Shown: positions 1 through 40,119, counted from the stretch's first letter. The stretch: DNA of 64,000 nucleotides from an uncultured Clostridia bacterium (GCA_945948535.1 CAMFBN010000002.1:240-64239); one strand, 5' to 3'. The notes: a model not told the origin generated them from the letters alone. Numbers and translations: made by a program.

Positions 1-51
1 CCCGATATTATTTTGTGGTATATTATAAACAAAAGAGAAAGGGGTGTATGT

Positions 52-249
52 ATGCCGGTATCGAAAGCGCAGCAAAAAGCGGTTTCTAAATACATGAAGG
101 AGAATTACGACGAACTGAAAGCCAGAATTCCCAAGGGGCAGAAGGAGACAATTAAGGCCCACGCAGAGGCCAAGGGCGAGAGCCTGAACGCCTTTATTAA
201 TCGGGCCATATCCGAGACCATGGAGCGCGACAACGCCGCCACAGAATAA
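52..249 (+). CDS. Small ribbon-helix-helix/Arc-like DNA-binding protein (antitoxin-like)
   Basis: MPVSKAQQKAVSKYMKENYDELKARIPKGQKE...GESLNAFINRAI; SD AAGGGG; extended -10 TGgTATATT at 16-24. Confidence 0.8.
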   Translation: MPVSKAQQKAVSKYMKENYDELKARIPKGQKETIKAHAEAKGESLNAFINRAISETMERDNAATE

Positions 250-272
250 AAAGTCCCGCCGTGGTGGCGGGA
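250..272 (-). terminator. GC hairpin with A-run on the + strand side (terminator on the minus strand, possibly bidirectional)
   Basis: AAAAG-TCCCGCC-gtggt-GGCGGGA. Confidence 0.55.
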
Positions 273-275
273 GCA

Positions 276-304
276 TTGACACTTCATATCCGTGGTATTA
301 CAAT
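276..304 (+). promoter_or_regulatory. Near-consensus sigma-A promoter
   Basis: TTGACA (276-281), 17 nt spacer, TACAAT (299-304). Confidence 0.75.
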
Positions 305-310
305 ATCGAT

Positions 311-570
311 AGAAGCACCGGCGGGCGCACAAAGATAACTGGCATCGGTGGACTGCATAGCCGCTTTTGTGGTAACTGTAGACTCCGCTTCGGGCGTTGC
401 ATCGGGGCCAGTTGTATTTGTGGTTGCGGGACTTCGTTGGGAGCAGAGCTGATGGGCGTGGCAAGAGAGCCGTTTACGGTGACTCCCCTGCCGGAGTAGG
501 CTATGCTCCCAATTTCATACATCACACAGCCGGGAGCTGCTTTCAACAGTTGTTCCCGGCTGTTCCTGTT
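311..570 (+). ncRNA. Candidate structured noncoding RNA (unassigned)
   Basis: Downstream of the promoter; stems 328-343/407-422, 347-357/377-389, 437-445/504-512, 526-535/554-563; no ORF with a good SD. Confidence 0.45.
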
Positions 571-1048
571 CTGTCTGTGTTATGTATGTGGTGGTGCCCC
601 CCCCTGCAGGGCAGGCCAATAAAGGACGGCGGGGCGGTGCTGTACTATCAATCAATCAATCGTTCCCCTTGAAGATACCCCCCCACCGGGGGATAGCGGA
701 AAAACGGGCGGGTCGCTCTCTATATGTATAGATATATACGAAACATACACGCTTCCATATTTTACATTTTACCGCAATAAACATGTAATTTCAGAATAAA
801 TTACGCCAATACCTACATAGGGGGTGGCGGAAAAAGAGCCGGGGTGCTTTCGCATTTCCCGGCTCAAATAAATAATTCAGGAGAAAAATATTCTGGGTGC
901 TACAACTGTGCCAGCAGTCCAGTTTCCTTTCTGACGCATGAAAACACAACTATCCTATGCGTTTTCCATTTTTTCTGTGTGCGGTAATGAAAGTGTACCA
1001 CCCGTTTTTTCTCCGCTCAGAAAGCCGCCTACGGCCTCATGTAGCGCA

Positions 1049-1249
1049 TCAAATATCCACGGAGGTGCATTTCTCCCGTTCCAGCAGCTCCCGGACTGCC
1101 TGAATAATCAGGCCAGACATAGACCTCCCTGTGGAGTATGCGTACTCCTTAAGCCGCTGCCGCTGTCCGGCTGGTAAGCGTACCGCTGTGAAATCGTAGT
1201 GCCTGCGCTTGTACTCCTCTGTGGCGAATTTCTGAGCCGGTGATACCAA
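1049..1249 (-). CDS. Second RHH/Arc-like protein, paralog of 52-249
   Basis: TTG start after SD GAAGGAGG; VSPAQKFATEEYKRRHYD...RLPAGQRQRLKEYAYSTGRSMSGLIIQAVRE aligns with ORF 52-249. Confidence 0.7.
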   Translation of the reverse strand: MVSPAQKFATEEYKRRHYDFTAVRLPAGQRQRLKEYAYSTGRSMSGLIIQAVRELLEREKCTSVDI

Positions 1250-1534
1250 TGCTATCCCTCCTTCTGTGGTTGCTTGCTCCCCCCCTTTTCTACCCATTGT
1301 TCACAGTGTTCACAGTATATTCCTCTACGGGTAAATACCATTTAGAATCCGTTCTCCCGTGGGAATCTATGCGCATGGTGGCCTGTTTTGAATTTTCTTT
1401 TCTGGGGTGGTATAAAGTGCTGTCTTATTATTTGTGGCGGGAAATCGTGCGCTACCGCTTGTTTTTTGAAATGTCCGTTTTGGTGGACTAATACACACAG
1501 CGCACGGTCTGCGCCTGCAAAAAGAATTGCCGCG

Positions 1535-1708
1535 CTACTTTTTCCGCTCAATCGCCTTAGTGGCGGCGTTCAGAACTTCCCGGAGTTGGTCAATGTCCAT
1601 GCGGTTCAGCTTGTAAGAAATGCTGGCTATGAGGGTGTGCTTCAGATCGTCGGCTCGTTCGTCCTTTGGCGGGTATTTCCGTGGCTTGGTCGTCATGGTC
1701 GTTCTCAT
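1535..1708 (-). CDS. Small hypothetical phage protein (57 aa)
   Basis: SD AGGAGG before ATG at 1708; MRTTMTTKPRKYPPKDERADDLK... Confidence 0.6.
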   Translation of the reverse strand: MRTTMTTKPRKYPPKDERADDLKHTLIASISYKLNRMDIDQLREVLNAATKAIERKK

Positions 1709-1797
1709 GTGTGTCCTCCTGTGGTAGGGTTGCGGTGGCGGAAAAATGGGTGGTGTGCCTTGAAATAGGGCACCCCGAAAAATTATGAAACCCCAAA

Positions 1798-1968
1798 TTA
1801 TTCCGGGTCTGTATCCGTCAGCTCTGTGGCCTTCTTCTCGTTGCCAAGACGATACCGCCAAAGCGGGCAGTTGGTAGCGGGACAGCGGCGAACCTCTGCG
1901 CGAATGCCGCCGGAACAGTCCAAACATTTTTCCTGGATTGCCTTTTTTCGGGTGATTCTCTCGTCCAT
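1798..1968 (-). CDS. Small Cys-rich (putative Zn-binding) phage protein
   Basis: KAIQEKCLDCSGG...VRRCPATNCPLWRYR; SD GGAGG; TAATG coupling with the upstream gene. Confidence 0.75.
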   Translation of the reverse strand: MDERITRKKAIQEKCLDCSGGIRAEVRRCPATNCPLWRYRLGNEKKATELTDTDPE

Positions 1969-2201
1969 TAGATATCCTCCATAGCGTTGAGGAACGCCCG
2001 CAGATCCAGAAGCTCCTCCCGGGTCATGGTGAGGCCCTTTTGCATAGAGCGGGTTCCATCCACTTTGGCGCGCCACTTCCGCAAGTCGTATTTTGCGGGT
2101 GCGCCGTTGAAAGAAATCAAATGCAGCTCCAGCGGCAGGGAACCGGCAGTGCTCACAACGCCGCATTCCTTTTCGATTTCGTAATTAAATGCTTTTTTCA
2201 T
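1968..2201 (-). CDS. PC4/YdbC-family ssDNA-binding protein
   Basis: LELHLISFNGAPAKYDLRKW...KGLTMTREEL matches the YdbC/PC4 pattern; SD GGAGG. Confidence 0.75.
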   Translation of the reverse strand: MKKAFNYEIEKECGVVSTAGSLPLELHLISFNGAPAKYDLRKWRAKVDGTRSMQKGLTMTREELLDLRAFLNAMEDI

Positions 2202-2238
2202 GTATAAACCTCCATTTTGTGTTCCAGTGAAACAAATA

Positions 2239-3081
2239 TTATCCTTTTAGCAGCTGGGCCGCCAATTTCATTTTCTCGCTGGCAATAGTTGCCCGTCTCC
2301 CGTTGTTTCCGAAATTCACCGGCTGGCACATCTCCAAAATGCGGTCATAAATTCGCGCATGGTCGCGTGACTTTGGGTTTTTCAGTTCTGCAACAGAAAG
2401 ATTTGTGGTGACGATCAGCGGTTTTTCAGAACGATACCGTGCATCAACTACGTTGAAAATCTGCTCAAGGGCGTATTCTGTCTGCCGTTCCATTCCGAAA
2501 TCATCCAGAATCAGCAGTGGATATTGCATGAGGTCTGAAATGAACGCATTGCGTTCCTCCCGCTGAAAACCGCCCACGGTGTTCAGAATACCGGAAAGGT
2601 TTGTCATGCACACCGGGATTTTACGCTCAATCAGATAGTTGGCAAGACACGCAGCGGCGTAGCTCTTGCCCGTTCCCACTCCGCCATATAACAGCAAACC
2701 GATATTTTCACGGTAAAAATCGTCCCATTTATCCGCATATCGGCGAAGAGTGCGCATTGGTTCCGGGTTTTTCCCGTCATCCGCTTCAAAACGAGCGCCA
2801 CGGTATGCCTGTGAAGCAATCCCAGAACTCCGCAGGCGCATGATCTTGTCTGCATCTTCCTGTTTGCGCCGCTCTGTATCTTCTTCCTCCGCTTTTTCTT
2901 TTGCACACTGGCACATACATGAAACAACCCGCTCATTTCCTAAAATATGTACACGGCATTGCTTCGCGGTTTTGCACTTTCCGCAGTACAAAAGGCCGTC
3001 TTGCATGAAATCTCCCGGATTCATGGGGTTTGCTGCTGCCGATGCCGTGATAATCGGTTCCAATAAAGTCAAAGACTGCAA
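2239..3081 (-). CDS. DnaC/IstB-like AAA+ helicase loader
   Basis: N-terminal CxxC...CxC; Walker A GGVGTGKS; Walker B LLILDDFG; IVTTNL. Confidence 0.9.
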   Translation of the reverse strand: MQSLTLLEPIITASAAANPMNPGDFMQDGLLYCGKCKTAKQCRVHILGNERVVSCMCQCAKEKAEEEDTERRKQEDADKIMRLRSSGIASQAYRGARFEADDGKNPEPMRTLRRYADKWDDFYRENIGLLLYGGVGTGKSYAAACLANYLIERKIPVCMTNLSGILNTVGGFQREERNAFISDLMQYPLLILDDFGMERQTEYALEQIFNVVDARYRSEKPLIVTTNLSVAELKNPKSRDHARIYDRILEMCQPVNFGNNGRRATIASEKMKLAAQLLKG

Positions 3082-3662
3082 TTCAATTCACCTCCGTAAT
3101 CCGGCATTGGGGTGGAAAGACGTCCATTTTCATCCTTCCTGTTCCAATTCCGCACCGCCGCTCTCCAGTCCTTCATCTTGCTTCTGCCCACCATCCAACC
3201 ATTGGATGTGTAGTGATCAACAAACCGCTCTGGGTCAACATGATAGCCCTTCTCCGCACAGTATGCCCGCACATCATCCACACTTGGAGGGGAAAACAGG
3301 TGGCGGGTGGGCGGCTTGTCCGCCTTACTCTCATAGGACTGGATAGGATATGGATAGGACATGGATTGGATAGGAGTGTCACTTTGCGGCGTTTTGCTGT
3401 CATTTGCTGCATTTTGCTGACCTTTGCTCACCTTAGCATTCTTTGATAGTGTATTGCAATACTCCTGGTATCTGTCAATCTGGTTTGCAACTGCCTGAAA
3501 TGCCACATCTACCGCCGCATCATCCCCGGAATACACATCACCGCCGAATCGATACGAGAAAGCGGCACGCATGAGAATACCAAATTGTTCATCTGAGAAT
3601 TTCCGGGTGATAGCCATGACTTCCGGGAACAGTACCAGCGTTTCCTGTTTCTTCCGTGCCGT
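3069..3662 (-). CDS. Phage replication initiator (DUF6291-like N-terminus, DnaD-like C-terminus); apparent ACG start
   Basis: RKKQETLVLFPE...FSDEQFGILMRAAFSY and FSPPSVDDVRAYC...FVDHYTSNGW..GRSKMKDWRAAVRNW; SD GGAGGTGA is followed 5 nt later by ACG. Confidence 0.8.
   Translation of the reverse strand, partial: TARKKQETLVLFPEVMAITRKFSDEQFGILMRAAFSYRFGGDVYSGDDAAVDVAFQAVANQIDRYQEYCNTLSKNAKVSKGQQNAANDSKTPQSDTPIQSMSYPYPIQSYESKADKPPTRHLFSPPSVDDVRAYCAEKGYHVDPERFVDHYTSNGWMVGRSKMKDWRAAVRNWNRKDENGRLSTPMPDYGGELNCSL
3337..3440. promoter_or_regulatory. Putative replication origin (iterons) inside the initiator gene
   Basis: TTTGC at 3383, 3393, 3403, 3413, 3423 and TTAGC at 3433 (exact 10-bp period); GGATAGGA repeats at 3342-3375. 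Confidence 0.6.
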
Positions 3663-3667
3663 ACCGC

Positions 3668-3880
3668 TCACCTCCCAGAGATGGAATACCGGGCAAATGT
3701 GACCGTTTCGCCGTAGCGGTTTTTCTGGGTGATCATGTCCCGGTGAATGGGAATGCCTGCCTTTTTGAGGTCTGTAATTCTGGAAGCGAGCCGCAGAATG
3801 TGGTATTCCTGCATCGCTTCCAGACTGGTGATACTGCCGTATTCTTCCATGTGGCGGAGAATCTTTTCGCATTGTGTCAT
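3668..3880 (-). CDS. Phage helix-turn-helix protein (HTH_39-like)
   Basis: MTQCEKILRHMEEYGSITSLEAMQEYHILRLASRITDLKKAG. Confidence 0.8.
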   Translation of the reverse strand: MTQCEKILRHMEEYGSITSLEAMQEYHILRLASRITDLKKAGIPIHRDMITQKNRYGETVTFARYSISGR

Positions 3881-3897
3881 ATGTAGCACCTCCGAGA

Positions 3898-4077
3898 TTA
3901 GCCCGCCACGGTGGCGGGAGCGTTCAAAAATTCCACCAGCTTTTCAAGATTGACAAGGTACTTTGTGCCAACCATAACGTAGTAGGGAAATTGCCCACTC
4001 TTTATCCATCGACGAATTGCGCTATACGGTACACCTGTAAGTTCTGCCGCCTTGTTCATCGTTACCATTGTAGGCAT
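3898..4077 (-). CDS. xis: Excisionase-like HTH protein (59 aa, not in ORF track)
   Basis: Hand translation MPTMVTMNKAAELTGVPYSAIRRWIKSGQFPYYVMVGTKYLVNLEKLVEFL; SD AAGGAGG. Confidence 0.75.
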   Translation of the reverse strand: MPTMVTMNKAAELTGVPYSAIRRWIKSGQFPYYVMVGTKYLVNLEKLVEFLNAPATVAG

Positions 4078-4256
4078 GAGCTGGCCTCCTTTGATAGTTC
4101 AGCAATGATCTCCATTACCCGCGCCCTGTCATTCTCTGATAGTTCCCGGCGGAGTTTCCGGGAAAAGTTTCCGTCATTCATTCCGAGACGTTCGGCAATT
4201 TGCCAGAGGCATACACCCGCTTGCTTGGCGGCTTCCCGAATTTCTTTATTACACAT
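4062..4256 (-). CDS. Cro-like HTH regulator
   Basis: MCNKEIREAAKQAGVCLWQIAERLGMNDGNFSRKLRREL; SD GAAGGAGG; divergent from the cI-like gene. Confidence 0.8.
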   Translation of the reverse strand: MCNKEIREAAKQAGVCLWQIAERLGMNDGNFSRKLRRELSENDRARVMEIIAELSKEASSCLQW

Positions 4257-4449
4257 ATGTCCTCCTTCAAGTAAAATTGTTGTTGACTTCCGATCGTAAC
4301 CGTGGTATTCTGTATTCGGAATAAACAACAACATCTTTCTGTTTACAGTATAACATATTTTTGATGTTGTGCCATATGTTCGAAAATAAATCTGAAATCA
4401 GATTTAAGAAATTTATTATTCTGTTTCCAGAAATAGGAGGAATGTTCAA

Positions 4450-5160
4450 ATGTCGGAAGAAAAAATCGGAAAAGCTAGCGTTTCTGAGGAAAAAACGAGA
4501 AAATATAAGCTGACAATTGGGGAACGACTTAAAGACGCTCGCGTAGATTTCAACAAACACAAAAAGCAGACAATCAAAGAAGTGTCCGATGCAACCGGCA
4601 TCCCGCAGTCAACATTATCTGAAATAGAGAATGATAAACGAGAACCAGGAGCCGGAATCATCAGAAAGCTGGCTGAGCATTACGGTGTTTCGGCTGACTT
4701 TCTGCTTGGGTTGTCTGATATAAAGACTTCCGATGTAACAGCTCAGTCGGTCATTGAATACACTGGACTCTCAGAAAAAACTGTGGGTGTGTTGAACAGT
4801 TTGGCCAAAGGTAAAATAAATCATTTAACAGAAGACGGTGAAACTATTAACGGGAATATGCCGCTTCTTGACTGCCTAGATGATTTCTTGAGTATCGCGT
4901 TTAGAAAAGACGTGCTTAAATTCTATATTGCGTTGCGGCAGAACTCGGTGAAACACTTTAATGGTACATCACGCAACTATTTAGATTGGTGGAACGTTGT
5001 TGATGGTGAGGCTCATTGGCATATTAACGGAATGTGTGAATATGCGTGTTTGAAAATTGGAAAAGAAGTGGAGTTGGCATTGCGTGAGAAATATTACAAA
5101 GAAGAACAAAGTGGATTTGTATATATGAATGCTGATGGGAAAGTCGTTGACAACGATTGA
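4450..5160 (+). CDS. XRE-family (cI-like) repressor with non-peptidase C-terminal domain
   Basis: IGERLKDAR...TIKEVSDATGIPQSTLSEIENDKREPG...LAEHYGVSADFLLGLSD. Confidence 0.85.
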   Translation: MSEEKIGKASVSEEKTRKYKLTIGERLKDARVDFNKHKKQTIKEVSDATGIPQSTLSEIENDKREPGAGIIRKLAEHYGVSADFLLGLSDIKTSDVTAQSVIEYTGLSEKTVGVLNSLAKGKINHLTEDGETINGNMPLLDCLDDFLSIAFRKDVLKFYIALRQNSVKHFNGTSRNYLDWWNVVDGEAHWHINGMCEYACLKIGKEVELALREKYYKEEQSGFVYMNADGKVVDND

Positions 5161-5311
5161 TTAAGAACGCAGGTATAACATATGCAAAAAACCGCCACCG
5201 TGGCGGCAACCACGATGGCGGAGATGTAAACCAGCAGAAACCACTCAAACCGATTTACCCGGATATCATACCACATTCGGCGGATCGGTGCAAGCAAAGA
5301 AAGGAATGAAT

Positions 5312-6685
5312 ATGGCAACAATTAAAAAGCGTGGCAATTCCTACCTTATCCGCTGCTATGACGGTTACGATCAGACCGGCAGGCAAATCGAACGGACTAT
5401 GACATGGAAAATTCCGGCTGGAATGTCCGAGAAGAAAGCAGAGCGGGAGGCCCGCCACCAAGCGGGACTGTTTGAGGAAAAAGTGCGGACTGGCCAGAGC
5501 GCAGAGCAGAAGATCAAGTTTGCGGATTTCTGCGACCTCTGGATGAAGGACTACGCAGAAACCCAGCTTCGCCCAAAAACTGTAACCCGCTACCGTGGCC
5601 TGTTGGAGCGGATAAAGCCCGCTCTTGGCAGCATCTACCTTGACCGCCTACGGCCCACCCATCTGACCGCCTTTTACCGGGAGCTTGCTCAGGTTCGGAA
5701 GGTGTCCACTTACACCGCGAAAATGGATCTGAAAGCATATCTCAAAGAGCACAAGATCACCCAAACGAAGCTGGCCGAAGATTCCGGTATCTGCACCGCC
5801 ACAATCCGCTCTATCATCATCGGCAACGCCGCCACCGAAGAAACGGCGCAAAAAATAGCCGATGCCTTGCACATCGACTTTGACAAGCTGTTCCAGCCCT
5901 CCGGGGAGCCTCAGCCGCTGTCCGGGCAGACGATCCTGCACTATCACCGGCTCATTTCCGTCATCCTGCAAACCGCCGTGGAATGGCAGTACATCCCCGC
6001 CAATGCCGCGGAGCGGGTCAAGCCTCCAAAAGCCGAAGCCAACGAAGCGGTATATCTGGATGACAAGCAGGCGATTCACCTTCTTGAGCTGCTGGAGGAG
6101 CAGCCGATCTATTACCGTACCGCTGTCACGGTGTTGCTGTTCACAGGTATGCGCCGGGGTGAATTGATGGGCCTTGTGTGGAGTGACATTGATTTCGACA
6201 ATAACACAATCACGATCCATCGGTCTTTGCAGTATCTCCCGGATATGGGCGTGTTCACATCCGACACCAAAACCAAATCCAGCCGCCGCGTTATCAAAGC
6301 ACCGGCTACCGCCATTCAGTCCCTGAAGGTGTACCGTGCATGGCAGAAGAAAACATTCCTGAGCATCGGTCAGTCGTGGGAAGAATCCGGGCGGGTATTT
6401 GTCACACAGAACGGAACGCCCATGCACCCGGATACGCTGACAAGCTGGTTCGGCAGCTTCATCAAAACAACCGATCTTCCGCAGATTCATATTCACAGCC
6501 TGCGGCACACAAACGCCACCTTGCAGATTGCAAACGGTGTGGCGGCCACTACCGTGGCGGGAACACTGGGCCACAGCACAGCCAATACCACGACAAAGGT
6601 TTACGCCCATGCCATTCAGAGTGCCGCCGCAGCCTCCGCCGAAATGATGGATAACCTTCTGAACCCCATGAAAAAACAGGCGTAA
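5312..6685 (+). CDS. int: Tyrosine recombinase/integrase with internal XRE-HTH insertion
   Basis: Catalytic motifs TGMRRGE, HIHSLRH, LGH, TTKVY; N-terminal arm-binding-like MATIKKRGNSYLIR. Confidence 0.95.
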   Translation: MATIKKRGNSYLIRCYDGYDQTGRQIERTMTWKIPAGMSEKKAEREARHQAGLFEEKVRTGQSAEQKIKFADFCDLWMKDYAETQLRPKTVTRYRGLLERIKPALGSIYLDRLRPTHLTAFYRELAQVRKVSTYTAKMDLKAYLKEHKITQTKLAEDSGICTATIRSIIIGNAATEETAQKIADALHIDFDKLFQPSGEPQPLSGQTILHYHRLISVILQTAVEWQYIPANAAERVKPPKAEANEAVYLDDKQAIHLLELLEEQPIYYRTAVTVLLFTGMRRGELMGLVWSDIDFDNNTITIHRSLQYLPDMGVFTSDTKTKSSRRVIKAPATAIQSLKVYRAWQKKTFLSIGQSWEESGRVFVTQNGTPMHPDTLTSWFGSFIKTTDLPQIHIHSLRHTNATLQIANGVAATTVAGTLGHSTANTTTKVYAHAIQSAAAASAEMMDNLLNPMKKQA

Positions 6686-6781
6686 CGGACAAATAACGGA
6701 CAATCCATTTTTTGAGATTTTGAAAATGTTCGCAAAAATTCAGAAAACACCGGGTTTCGTACTGAAACTCGGTGTTTTTAC

Positions 6782-6857
<76 letters not shown>

Positions 6858-6891
6858 ATACATTATATGAAAGGCGAAGGCCTGAGCATCT

Positions 6892-6968
6892 TGGTGGGCC
6901 TTCAGGGACTCGAACCCGGGACTATCCGGTTATGAGCCGGAGGCTCTGACCAACTGAGCTAAAGGCCC
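6892..6968 (-). tRNA. trnI: tRNA with CAT anticodon, most likely tRNA-Ile2 (lysidine type)
   Basis: 77-nt cloverleaf GGGCCTTTAGCTCAGTTGG...GGCTCATAACCGG...GGCCCACCA; anticodon arm resembles Bacillota Ile2 rather than Met. Confidence 0.88.
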
Positions 6969-7112
6969 ATAGATATCACGGTGAACTCGTCACCACGCAG
7001 AACATTATAGCATTGATGCCGCATTCTGTCAAGAAAATTCTTCGGCAGGGAGGAAGGAATCTGCTGCTTCAAGGAAATGACCCGGGAGACTACAGTCTCC
7101 CGGGGATTTGGG

Positions 7113-39918: not shown

Positions 39919-40002
39919 AATTACCGTCTCCTGTGCAAAAAAATGCGCCCCGGGAATGGACCCAGGGCGTGAAAATAAACGCAAGTATGATCTTTCCTTG
40001 CG

Positions 40003-40119
40003 TATCTTCTTCCATCCAGACTATACTGTCGGTATCGGAGTTTCACCGATTCGGCACGTTTTCACGCGCTCGCGGACTTTACCGCCGGTGGGGAATTGCG
40101 CCCCGCCCTGAAGATACTG
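40003..40119 (-). ncRNA. FMN riboswitch (RFN element)
   Basis: TATCTTCAGGGCGGGGCGCAATTCCCCACCGGCGGTAAAGTCCGCGAG...GACAGTATAGTCTGGATGGAAGAAG. Confidence 0.96.

What the first reader, a model, noticed from the sequence alone, without database searches (positions are those of the whole stretch)
276..570. Promoter-driven, highly structured candidate ncRNA inside the element
Seen: TTGACA-17-TACAAT fires into ~260 nt with no well-initiated ORF. By eye this folds into three domains. D1 has closing stem 328-343/407-422 with inner helices 347-357/377-389 and 361-364/369-372. D2 has closing stem 437-445/504-512 with inner hairpin 482-486/493-497. D3 is a hairpin, 526-539/547-563, followed by a T-rich tail. 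Mismatches are mostly G-U compatible on the + strand. I cannot match it to a family I know. Inference: an element-encoded RNA (antitoxin, anti-phage or regulatory RNA), flanked by two RHH genes that could control it.
Basis: partly seen in the sequence, partly recalled or inferred. Interest (0 to 1): 0.78.

Follow-up and report, generated by a model that had tools for sequence, protein, structure and literature searches.

The report
New modular RNA on gut mobile elements
The flagged stretch is a real non-coding RNA gene of about 255 bases on a small integrated mobile element of gut Clostridia; it belongs to an undescribed family of modular structured RNAs whose function is still unknown.

Summary
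A near-consensus promoter (276-304) precedes a strongly folded + strand region. Three sequence lineages keep 97.7% of 87 predicted pairs, with compensatory and G-U-only changes that fit the + strand. No reading frame is conserved, and Rfam 15 has no match. Five gut metatranscriptome assemblies contain this stretch but not the neighbouring genes.

It is a swappable cassette. Sibling elements with the same upstream RHH gene diverge exactly at the -35 box. Most of them carry a type I toxin-antitoxin module in that slot; one carries that module and this RNA in tandem.

The last hairpin (526-563) is the shared backbone terminator, not part of the cassette.

The inner part of domain 2 (450-499) is a roughly 50-nt motif. 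It recurs with different, covarying closing stems in two viral-contig lineages, one Ruminococcaceae MAG and several gut sequencing runs. Each recovered genomic copy has its own promoter. The junction core of domain 1 recurs as well. Domains are gained and lost as units.

I found no toxin ORF and no antisense target, so it is not a classical antitoxin. My best inference, at moderate confidence, is a stable trans-acting RNA that binds a protein or ligand and serves the element's maintenance or conflict cargo.

The parts
52..249 (+). RHH1, a ribbon-helix-helix gene of an antitoxin/repressor-like family. It is the upstream neighbour here, but not in every copy of the cassette.
   Evidence: Weak, sub-threshold Pfam hits to Arc, HicB and TacA1. 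PF10723 is precomputed for the identical protein. Relatives elsewhere precede zeta toxin and what read by eye as RelE/ParE-like and Uma2-like genes. L189 carries the cassette behind a different gene.
254..272 (-). GC-rich hairpin with its T-run on the - strand. It would stop leftward transcripts before RHH1. One of four copies of the palindrome CCCGCCrYGGTGGCGGG in the element.
   Evidence: Terminator scan; repeat families D2, D3 and D7. Conserved in all sibling elements.
276..304 (+). Promoter TTGACA-17-TACAAT. The -35 box is the exact breakpoint of similarity between sibling elements.
   Evidence: 11/12 match. Hexamers invariant and spacer variable in window, L029, L032 and L189. Similarity breaks at 281.
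311..568 (+). Predicted mature RNA of about 255 nt. The start near 311 is inferred from the -10 box. The 3' end near 565-568 is suggested by contig ends in two metatranscriptomes.
   Evidence: RNA-run contigs cover 282-599, 404-568, 417-565, 62-451 and 185-372, with no near-identical coverage of 1050-3200.
312..435 (+). Domain 1: closing helices 312-315/432-435 and 316-324/424-431, a long helix 328-352/398-422, and a three-way junction with hairpins 353-381 (nested 360-373) and 386-396.
   Evidence: z = -2.98 on +, -0.53 on -.. With L190 added, 40 pairs of which 7 show compensatory changes.
344..401 (+). Conserved junction core of domain 1: ATCGGTGGACTGCRTAGCC (344-362), a variable hairpin, then GGTAACYGTAGACTCCGCTTCGGGCGTTGCA (371-401).
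   Evidence: 84% identical to L190 over 338-401 while the flanks differ. The hairpin changes from GCCGC/GUGGU to GCCUCC/GGAGGU. Found alone in contigs of runs X35 and X37.
436..513 (+). Domain 2: closing stem 436-450/499-513 around the core motif.
   Evidence: Covariance model R2 scores 102 bits on the + strand and 12 bits on the - strand.
450..499 (+). Core motif: UGAUGGGCGUGGCAAGAGAGCCG, a loop, then CGGUGACUCCCCYGC..NUAG. It is the most conserved unit of the family.
   Evidence: Exact 21-mer found in L190, L191 and L192. A diverged copy in L153 scores 45 bits. The closing stem covaries fully, with 4 compensatory pairs. The motif is cleanly absent in run X39 and stands alone in run X35.
514..525 (+). 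Single-stranded linker (AUUUCAUACAUCAC). It is the only long unpaired stretch.
   Evidence: No second match of its complement in the 64-kb window.
526..563 (+). Domain 3: terminator hairpin that belongs to the element backbone. A weak U-rich tail follows at 564-590.
   Evidence: Aligns with the hairpin of cassette-less and type-A elements. The outer GCCGGG/CCCGGC is kept and the inner stem covaries. z = -6.09. In L189, G.U becomes G-C and A-U.

Best explanation
Shown: window 276-568 is an independent + strand RNA gene. A sigma-70-type promoter (276-304) drives a non-coding RNA of about 255 nt. It has two cassette-specific domains (D1 312-435, D2 436-513) and ends at a terminator hairpin (526-563) that belongs to the element backbone.

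The gene is a swappable cargo cassette of a small element (roughly 8-10 kb by my estimate) in gut Clostridia, integrated here next to tRNA genes. The cassette sits in the slot, and under the type of promoter, that sibling elements use for the antitoxin RNA of Hol-Tox-like type I toxin-antitoxin modules.

It belongs to an undescribed modular RNA family. A roughly 50-nt core motif (450-499) and a three-way-junction core (344-401) recur in other mobile elements, alone or in other combinations. Each copy recovered as a genomic locus has its own promoter and its own covarying closing stem.

Inferred: the conserved nucleotides lie in internal loops and junctions inside freely covarying helices, the terminal loops vary, and whole domains come and go. 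I also found no ORF, no toxin and no antisense target. The RNA therefore most likely acts in trans as a stable binding platform (decoy, sponge or sensor) for a protein or small ligand. It would serve the element's maintenance or conflict repertoire (TA modules, ArdC, restriction-modification) rather than act as a base-pairing antitoxin.

My confidence that it is a real non-coding RNA gene of a new family is about 0.85. My confidence in the binding-platform mechanism is about 0.35-0.4.
For: - Promoter and folding.
- Structure kept across lineages: 97.7% of cells paired against 34-48% when the partners are slid; 3 compensatory pairs and about 10 one-sided, wobble-compatible changes. D1 with L190 added has 7 compensatory pairs of 40. 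The core closing stem has 4 compensatory pairs of 28. Run X36 shows a compensatory G-C to C-G change in the core hairpin.
- Strand: about 15 G.U pairs; D1 folds only on the + strand; model R2 gives 102 against 12 bits.
- Non-coding: indels of 11, 4, 5 and 1 nt; no conserved frame; no protein homologues; no Pfam or NCBIfam hit.
- Expression: five metatranscriptome assemblies hold 62-599 but have no near-identical contig for 1050-3200.
- Cassette nature: similarity breaks at the -35 box; L029 carries type A and this cassette in tandem.
- Type I TA in the same slot.
- Family and modularity.
- Promoters in every context: TTGACA-17-TAAACT (L190), TTGACT-17-TATACT (L191), TTGCCT-17-TATACT (L153), read.
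- Cargo context: ArdC; RHH plus zeta toxin and an N6 methylase.
- No antisense target beyond background.
Against: - No binding partner is identified. The mechanism rests only on the pattern of conservation.
- The whole cassette has only three close lineages (82-93% identical), so the shuffle statistics are weak (9 of 500).
- The RNA evidence comes from unstranded assembled contigs at 3-6x depth. DNA carry-over and read-through from RHH1 cannot be excluded; contigs 62-451 and 185-372 cross the promoter.
- D2 folds at least as well on the - strand.
- As single-stranded DNA the + strand also folds significantly (z = -3.57).
- In L190 a gene follows on the same strand, which would fit a cis-acting leader.
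- The target search covered only the visible part of the element and the toxin RNAs I had in hand.
Confidence: 0.45

Rival explanations
1. It is a base-pairing regulator. One version is an orphan or trans-acting type-I-like antitoxin that neutralises a toxin mRNA encoded elsewhere (in the unseen left part of the element, in the host, or in a competing element). Another is an sRNA that uses the 514-525 linker as a seed.
For: The slot, the upstream - strand terminator and the promoter type are the same as for the antitoxin RNAs of type A modules, and the first transcribed bases are similar (AUAGAAG). Type I TA modules on Clostridia prophages stabilise mobile elements (PMC7699646, PMC6563280). 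The RNA has a hairpin terminator preceded by an unpaired linker.
Against: No SD-led hydrophobic ORF lies on either strand of the cassette or in 1-7000. Duplex energies with the element and with 16 type A toxin and antitoxin RNAs stay within background: best -48 kcal/mol against a background minimum of -53. Terminal loops vary freely (UUUU, GCAGA, CUCG; UUUA, UUUG, UUUU), which is unlike kissing-loop antisense RNAs. The conserved bases lie inside helices.
Confidence: 0.2
2. It is a cis-acting leader: a riboswitch-like attenuator, or a put/EAR-like processive antiterminator, that decides whether polymerase passes the 526-563 terminator.
For: The layout is promoter, structured RNA, terminator. 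In L190 an SD-led 127-aa ORF follows on the same strand. In one run X35 contig the closing stem of the core is followed directly by a U-run. The conserved internal loops would suit an aptamer.
Against: In the window, L029, L189 and L153 no gene follows on that strand; the next genes converge. The L190-type leader exists without the core in runs X39 and X37. RNA contigs stop at 565-568 with nothing beyond. A candidate antiterminator pairing (505-510 with 533-538) is broken by the L189 substitution, by my inspection.
Confidence: 0.12
3. The structure works as single-stranded DNA. It would be a single-strand origin or ssDNA initiation signal used after conjugative transfer of a mobilisable element.
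For: With DNA energy parameters the + strand folds with z = -3.57 and the - strand with z = -1.1. The element family carries ArdC and a PC4-like protein, a family I know as ssDNA-binding.
Against: A canonical double-stranded promoter lies outside the fold and is conserved in every family context. The many G.U pairs are weak as G.T in DNA. The stretch is present in metatranscriptome assemblies. The core motif also occurs in viral contigs and beside theta-type replication genes such as DnaB and DnaC. No relaxase was seen.
Confidence: 0.07
4. It is a self-cleaving or otherwise catalytic RNA.
For: The internal-loop and junction nucleotides are highly conserved. A CUGAUG element in the core recalls the hammerhead CUGAUGA by memory only.
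Against: No match to any Rfam ribozyme model, even at E-value up to 10. The hammerhead GAAA element and its three-helix geometry are absent. RNA contigs run unbroken across D2.
Confidence: 0.04
5. It is a protein-coding region or a chance structure.
For: Mechanical ORFs exist: 82 aa on the - strand, 91, 39 and 34 aa on the + strand, and a 15-aa ORF at 452-499 with an SD-like GGGAG.
Against: Indels that are not multiples of three break every frame. There is no homologue for the 82-aa frame, and only one mis-called ORF on another cassette-bearing contig for the 91-aa frame. All three variable sites in the 15-aa ORF are non-synonymous, and its frame and stop are lost in L190 and L191. L189 loses both the SD and the ATG of the 39-aa ORF. 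Covariation supports RNA structure instead.
Confidence: 0.02

Closest known systems
Antitoxin sRNAs of type I toxin-antitoxin modules on Firmicutes prophages and elements (SR4/bsrG and RatA/txpA in Bacillus subtilis; RCd RNAs in Clostridioides difficile)
   Same: A strong constitutive promoter drives a structured sRNA of 100-250 nt on a mobile element. The cassette sits in exactly the slot, and behind the same - strand terminator and -35 box, where sibling elements carry Hol-Tox-like type I modules (PMC6562991, PMC7699646).
   Different: There is no toxin ORF opposite or nearby, no complementarity to any toxin mRNA tested, and no convergent promoter. Conservation lies in internal loops, not in the pairing loops.
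Protein-sequestering sRNAs (6S RNA, CsrB/RsmZ; viral decoys such as adenovirus VA RNA). This comparison rests on my own knowledge.
   Same: Abundant, stable, non-coding RNAs built from closed helical modules whose conserved internal loops are the binding sites. The number of modules varies between relatives.
   Different: There is no sequence or model match (6S is in Rfam). There are no GGA-loop repeats. The partner is unknown.
Orphan structured RNA motifs of mobile elements and prophages catalogued in Rfam (from my knowledge of the comparative-genomics motif collections)
   Same: A structured RNA supported by comparative evidence, tied to mobile-element contexts, with no assigned function.
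   Different: None of the 4227 Rfam 15 models matches the window cassette, the L190 RNA or the sibling cassettes.
Processive antitermination RNAs (phage HK022 put, Bacillus EAR), from my own knowledge
   Same: Promoter-proximal structured RNA on a phage-like element, followed by a terminator.
   Different: No downstream operon in most contexts, and the RNA contigs stop at the terminator.
Single-strand origins and ssDNA promoters of rolling-circle plasmids and conjugative elements (ssoA, Frpo), from my own knowledge
   Same: A strand-specific, highly folded non-coding segment of 200-300 nt on a transferable element.
   Different: The canonical duplex promoter lies outside the fold, the segment is found in metatranscriptome assemblies, and it occurs in viral contigs.

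Membership tests
Type I toxin-antitoxin antitoxin RNA | A small SD-led toxin ORF, usually hydrophobic, on the opposite strand or adjacent | tested here: not met
   No such ORF in 250-700 on either strand, and none conserved among the three lineages. No convincing Hol-Tox-like candidate in 1-7000; the two hits lie antisense inside the DUF6291 gene. Type A siblings do have one.
Type I toxin-antitoxin antitoxin RNA | Extended complementarity to a toxin mRNA | tested here: not met
   Duplex energies against 16 type A cassettes on both strands, and against the element 1-7000, stay within background. Toxins outside the sequences I hold were not testable.
Type I toxin-antitoxin antitoxin RNA | Constitutive promoter and genomic position shared with known antitoxin genes | tested here: met
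   Same hairpin plus TTGACA junction as type A antitoxin promoters. The window equals L029 minus the type A cassette, joined at the -35 box.
Any Rfam 15 family (riboswitches, ribozymes, 6S, SRP, tmRNA, T-box, known sRNAs) | Covariance-model score at or near the gathering threshold | tested here: not met
   Nothing at gathering score. The best E-values of 1.9-7.4 are noise. Also nothing for the sibling cassettes or for L190. ARAGORN finds no tRNA or tmRNA here.
Riboswitch or cis-regulatory leader | A regulated gene downstream on the same strand, consistently across members | tested here: not met
   Absent in the window, L029, L189 and L153. Present in L190 only, where the core motif is dispensable.
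Type III toxin-antitoxin antitoxin RNA | Tandem direct repeats followed by a toxin endoribonuclease gene | tested here: not met
   No tandem or direct repeats in 276-620, and no downstream gene.
Single-strand origin (ssoA type) or Frpo ssDNA promoter | Strand-specific ssDNA fold with the promoter elements formed inside the hairpin | tested here: inconclusive
   The + strand folds as ssDNA (z = -3.57) and the - strand does not. But the -35 and -10 boxes lie outside the fold, and by my inspection have no complementary partner. The conserved sso motifs (RSB, CS-6) were not tested.
Protein-coding gene | A reading frame preserved among relatives, with homologues in protein databases | tested here: not met
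   Frames are broken by indels. No homologues and no family hits.
New family proposed here (core motif plus junction core) | Conserved motif enclosed by a covarying closing stem and preceded by its own promoter, in independent genomic contexts | tested here: met
   Four lineages recovered as loci (the window group, L190/L192, L191, L153), plus variants in runs X35 and X36.

The most novel reading that the evidence does not exclude
The cassette is an RNA-only conflict module. Its closed domains would each trap a specific protein, for example a host defence nuclease, an RNA-binding immune sensor, or a toxin from a rival element. That would make it a bacterial counterpart of viral decoy RNAs, carried in the slot where sibling elements carry toxin-antitoxin modules. 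A variant that the data also do not exclude is that the RNA pairs functionally with the recurrently neighbouring RHH protein as a new protein-RNA toxin-antitoxin-like pair.
Probability: 0.2. Interest if true: 0.85.

Novelty: new variant of a known kind. Interest (0 to 1): 0.62.

Why it matters
Mobile elements of gut Clostridia are poorly studied, and few of their non-coding RNAs have any comparative support. This finding defines a promoter-driven structured RNA family from comparative evidence. It has two portable modules, and it sits among toxin-antitoxin, anti-restriction and restriction-modification cargo.

If the modules bind proteins or ligands, they would be a new class of RNA effector in conflicts between elements and hosts or between rival elements. 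The roughly 50-nt core motif is small enough for direct biochemistry.

The work also shows that the slot next to the RHH gene is a hotspot where type I toxin-antitoxin modules and RNA cassettes are exchanged at the -35 box of a promoter.

Tried and rejected
- Known RNA families: Rfam at gathering and at permissive thresholds on the window, the sibling cassettes and L190 gave nothing.
- Phage and plasmid collections: distant-mode BLAST of 250-900 gave no match.
- JGI metagenome scan with an 18-mer from D1 gave only chance matches. The first IMG/VR 16-mer scan also gave only chance matches, as did most hits of the degenerate 17-mer and L202.
- Looking downstream of RHH relatives: the whole cassette is absent from 80 GTDB loci and 26 viral loci.
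- Coding hypotheses: all ORFs rejected.
- Antisense target search within the element, against type A toxin and antitoxin RNAs, and for the linker seed: nothing beyond background.
- Extended pairing of the linker 515-528 with 576-589: not kept in L189, by my inspection.
- A riboswitch-like antiterminator alternative (505-510 with 533-538): broken in L189.
- Paralogy between the D1 inner hairpin and the core motif: model R2 gives no hit on D1.
- K-turn, sarcin-ricin loop and hammerhead readings of the core's internal loop: the required bases are not conserved among lineages. This was inspection only.
- Replication-primer idea: weakened because iteron-like tandem repeats lie inside the DUF6291 gene and cassette-less elements exist.

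Full report
**1. Setting**

Window 1-6700 is the right-hand part of a small integrated element. The annotated parts are:
- a tyrosine integrase (5288-6685) next to tRNA-Trp and tRNA-Met (6782-6968);
- a cI-like HTH gene (4450-5160);
- a leftward replication operon with DUF6291 (3069-3872), a DnaC/IstB-like ATPase (2239-3081), a PC4-like protein (1968-2201) and a ribbon-helix-helix gene RHH2 (1049-1297);
- a rightward ribbon-helix-helix gene RHH1 (52-249).

The window cuts the element at its left end. In the sibling contig L029 the element's left end abuts a host molybdopterin oxidoreductase gene. There the only genes left of RHH1 are ArdC and two small ORFs. By my estimate the whole element is only about 8-10 kb. 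The finding lies between RHH1 and the end of the converging replication operon.

**2.

TTGACA-17-TACAAT at 276-304 matches 11 of 12 consensus positions. Region 311-580 folds to -120.3 kcal/mol on the + strand (z = -4.0; 0 of 200 shuffles as good), against z = -2.7 on the - strand.

By domain:
- D1 (312-435) is strongly strand-specific: -51.0 against -31.3 kcal/mol, z = -2.98 against -0.53.
- D2 (436-513) folds well on both strands.
- D3 (522-568) is a very stable hairpin.

Rfam 15 has no match at gathering or at permissive thresholds. ARAGORN finds no tRNA-like gene.

**3. Relatives and structure**

Exact-protein look-ups of RHH1 and of one mis-called ORF gave the same cassette in L029 (88% identical), L032 and L036 (both partial) and L189 (82%). 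That makes three lineages.

RNAalifold on them predicts 87 pairs in ten helices. Of all cells, 97.7% are standard pairs, against 34-48% when the partners are slid by 1-3 columns. Three pairs show changes on both sides, for example A357-U377 to G-C. About ten pairs show one-sided changes that stay paired only through G.U on the + strand. Roughly fifteen G.U pairs would be C.A mismatches on the other strand. Diversity is low, so the shuffle control is only suggestive (9 of 500).

The inner D2 hairpin 482-486/493-497 is broken in L189 and in more distant relatives. The helix given as 347-357/377-389 is really 353-357/377-381 plus a separate hairpin at 386-396.

**4. Not coding**

L029 has an 11-nt insertion. 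L032 and L189 have a 4-nt deletion. The C-tract at 597-604 varies by 1 nt and L029 has a 5-nt deletion nearby. No ORF on either strand survives in all three lineages.

The + strand 91-aa frame retrieves a single mis-called ORF on another cassette-bearing contig. No ORF matches Pfam or NCBIfam.

The 39-aa ORF at 503-622 has the best SD. It loses both SD (GGAG to GGAT) and ATG in L189, and it would be cut by the terminator. The 15-aa ORF at 452-499 shows only non-synonymous changes and loses its frame in L190 and L191.

**5. Evidence of transcription**

The stretch occurs in contigs of five gut metatranscriptome runs: 282-599, 62-451, 404-568, 417-565 and 185-372. None of these runs yields a near-identical contig for the neighbouring genes at 1050-3200. 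Two independent contigs end at 565 and 568, just after D3.

These contigs are unstranded and shallow (3-6x). Two of them cross the promoter, so read-through from RHH1 or DNA carry-over is possible. This is supportive evidence, not decisive.

**6. It is a cassette**

Contigs that carry an identical RHH1 stay more than 94% identical to the window up to position 281, the last base of the -35 box. They then diverge and become alignable again from about 612-674. Assembly graphs of several runs branch at 281 into at least four different continuations, each reading TTGACA, about 17 nt, then TATAnT.

L029 carries another cassette ('type A') followed by this one, each behind its own TTGACA. The window equals L029 with type A removed between the two -35 boxes. 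L027 and L031 have no cassette, only a short filler.

D3 aligns with a hairpin present in all these backbones. The outer GCCGGG/CCCGGC is kept and the inner stem covaries. D3 is therefore the shared backbone terminator, and the cassette-specific part is 282 to about 517.

**7. What the slot usually holds**

Type A cassettes (18 examined) are type I toxin-antitoxin modules. On the strand opposite the left promoter they have a GGGGG Shine-Dalgarno sequence and a conserved peptide of 20-29 aa. In one subgroup the peptides are of the Hol-Tox kind, for example MVTYSDLIQIGILIVGIIGLFLQTKKK (Pfam PF16935, E = 2.5e-4). In the other subgroup they form an unannotated family, for example MPITLTFHILHWTVTIRVKSRNRHSAK.

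The modules also have a converging TTGACA-17-TATTCT promoter on their right, a central hairpin, and complementary 5' and 3' arms. The left promoter, homologous to the one in the finding, drives the antitoxin RNA. This fits published type I modules on Firmicutes prophages (PMC6562991, PMC6563280, PMC7699646).

The cassette in the window has the promoter but none of the rest. It has no toxin ORF, no recognisable converging promoter, and no complementarity to the type A RNAs or to anything in 1-7000 beyond background.

**8. A wider, modular family**

A 21-mer from the inner part of D2 hits three viral contigs. A covariance model of that region (R2) also finds a diverged copy in a Ruminococcaceae MAG (L153: 45 bits, rough E-value 1.8e-7 in the multi-locus search and 1.8e-9 on L153 alone).

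The shared unit is UGAUGGG..GGCAA.GAG, a hairpin, then CUCCCC..GC..NUAG (window 450-499). Its interior is almost invariant. Its closing stem differs completely in each context and stays complementary:
- window group: GGGAGCAGAGC / GCUAUGCUCCC
- L190: GGGCAAGGU / GCCUUGCCC
- L191: GAAGCAGAAC / GUUCUGCUUC
- L153: GGCGUCGAGC / GUUCGGCGUC

Each genomic copy has its own promoter 7-12 nt upstream of the first helix: TTGACA-17-TAAACT, TTGACT-17-TATACT and TTGCCT-17-TATACT.

L190 also carries the junction core of D1 (84% identity over 338-401). Its hairpin and outer helix show compensatory changes. Adding it to the D1 alignment gives 7 compensatory pairs out of 40.

Sequencing runs show more combinations:
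- the L190-type RNA with the 77-nt core block cleanly missing (X39, and probably X37);
- the D1 core alone and the core motif alone, the latter followed directly by a U-run (X35);
- a metatranscriptome variant with a G-C to C-G swap in the core hairpin (X36).

**9. Genomic company**

All contexts lie at the cargo end of mobile elements:
- In L190 the RNA lies after an RHH plus zeta-toxin pair (the RHH is 49% identical to RHH1) and before an N6 methylase.
- In L153 it lies after a DnaB/PDDEXK replication operon and converges on an RHH that is 75% identical to RHH1.
- In the window group it lies beside RHH1, or beside an HTH-like gene in L189, in elements that also carry ArdC or a pilin-like gene.

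**10. Interpretation**

Shown:
- it is a + strand RNA gene with a conserved promoter and a conserved structure;
- it is non-coding;
- it is a mobile cassette in a toxin-antitoxin slot;
- it belongs to a new modular family.

Inferred mechanism. The conserved bases lie in internal loops and junctions inside helices that are free to covary. The terminal loops drift. Whole closed domains are gained and lost without disturbing their neighbours. I found no base-pairing partner. That pattern is typical of RNAs that present binding sites to a protein or ligand, not of antisense RNAs. I therefore favour a stable trans-acting binding RNA (decoy, sponge or sensor) that works for the element's maintenance or conflict functions, at a probability of about 0.35-0.4.

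The main rivals are:
- an orphan or trans-acting antitoxin, or another base-pairing sRNA (0.2);
- a cis-acting leader or antiterminator (0.12);
- a single-stranded DNA signal for transfer (0.07);
- a ribozyme (0.04);
- a coding region or chance structure (0.02).

**11. Limits**

- Only three close lineages of the full cassette and four of the core motif were recovered.
- The large collections could be scanned only for exact words.
- The RNA evidence has no strand information.
- The left part of the window's own element is not visible.
- No experiment links the RNA to any phenotype.

Noticed in passing
L028:986-1290, L029:4334-4655, L033:1391-1725, L003, L008, L027:3481-3797 and others: The slot next to RHH1 usually holds type I toxin-antitoxin modules of two kinds. 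One encodes Hol-Tox-like peptides. The other encodes a conserved, non-hydrophobic, basic-tailed peptide (M[PR]ITL..H..FTVTI.VKSRNRHSAK) with no Pfam or NCBIfam hit, which may be an undescribed toxin family.
   Followed up: partly
window 256-272, 3903-3917, 5192-5206, 6546-6561: Four copies of a GC palindrome, CCCGCCrYGGTGGCGGG. Two of them are flagged as - strand terminators. They may be insulators, or operators for an element regulator. One abuts the -35 box of the RNA promoter.
   Followed up: partly
window 3377-3428: A 20-nt tandem repeat (2.5 copies) inside the DUF6291 gene, which I take to be a replisome-organiser-like gene. It looks like origin iterons.
   Followed up: no
window 689-720, 820-851, 1731-1762 and the AT-rich stretch 715-800: Three copies of GGCGGAAAAAnnGnCGGG flank an AT-rich block that is 87% conserved between otherwise different elements. 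This could be a second origin-like or protein-binding region. A possible - strand promoter lies at 794-766.
   Followed up: no
window 597-604: A run of eight C just downstream of the RNA differs by one base between sequencing runs (X8, X9). L029 has a 5-nt deletion beside it.
   Followed up: no
window 4283-4311: The promoter upstream of the cI-like gene (TTGACT-17-TATTCT) shares the spacer motif CCGTGGTAT with the RNA promoter (284-299 against 4294-4309). This may be a common operator.
   Followed up: no
window 40000-40119 (- strand): An FMN riboswitch in the host part of the window (119 bits).
   Followed up: no
L190:837-1594: An RHH1 homologue (49% identical) paired with a zeta-toxin gene. 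Other RHH1 relatives in GTDB loci precede what look by eye like RelE/ParE-like, Uma2-like and P-loop kinase genes. The RHH family would then serve as antitoxin for many toxins.
   Followed up: partly
L027 and L031 (filler between RHH1 and the backbone terminator), L028:1290-1400: Elements without the cassette carry a filler of about 100 nt with two small hairpins and a short - strand ORF beginning MTYPEQIARC. Its role is unknown.
   Followed up: no
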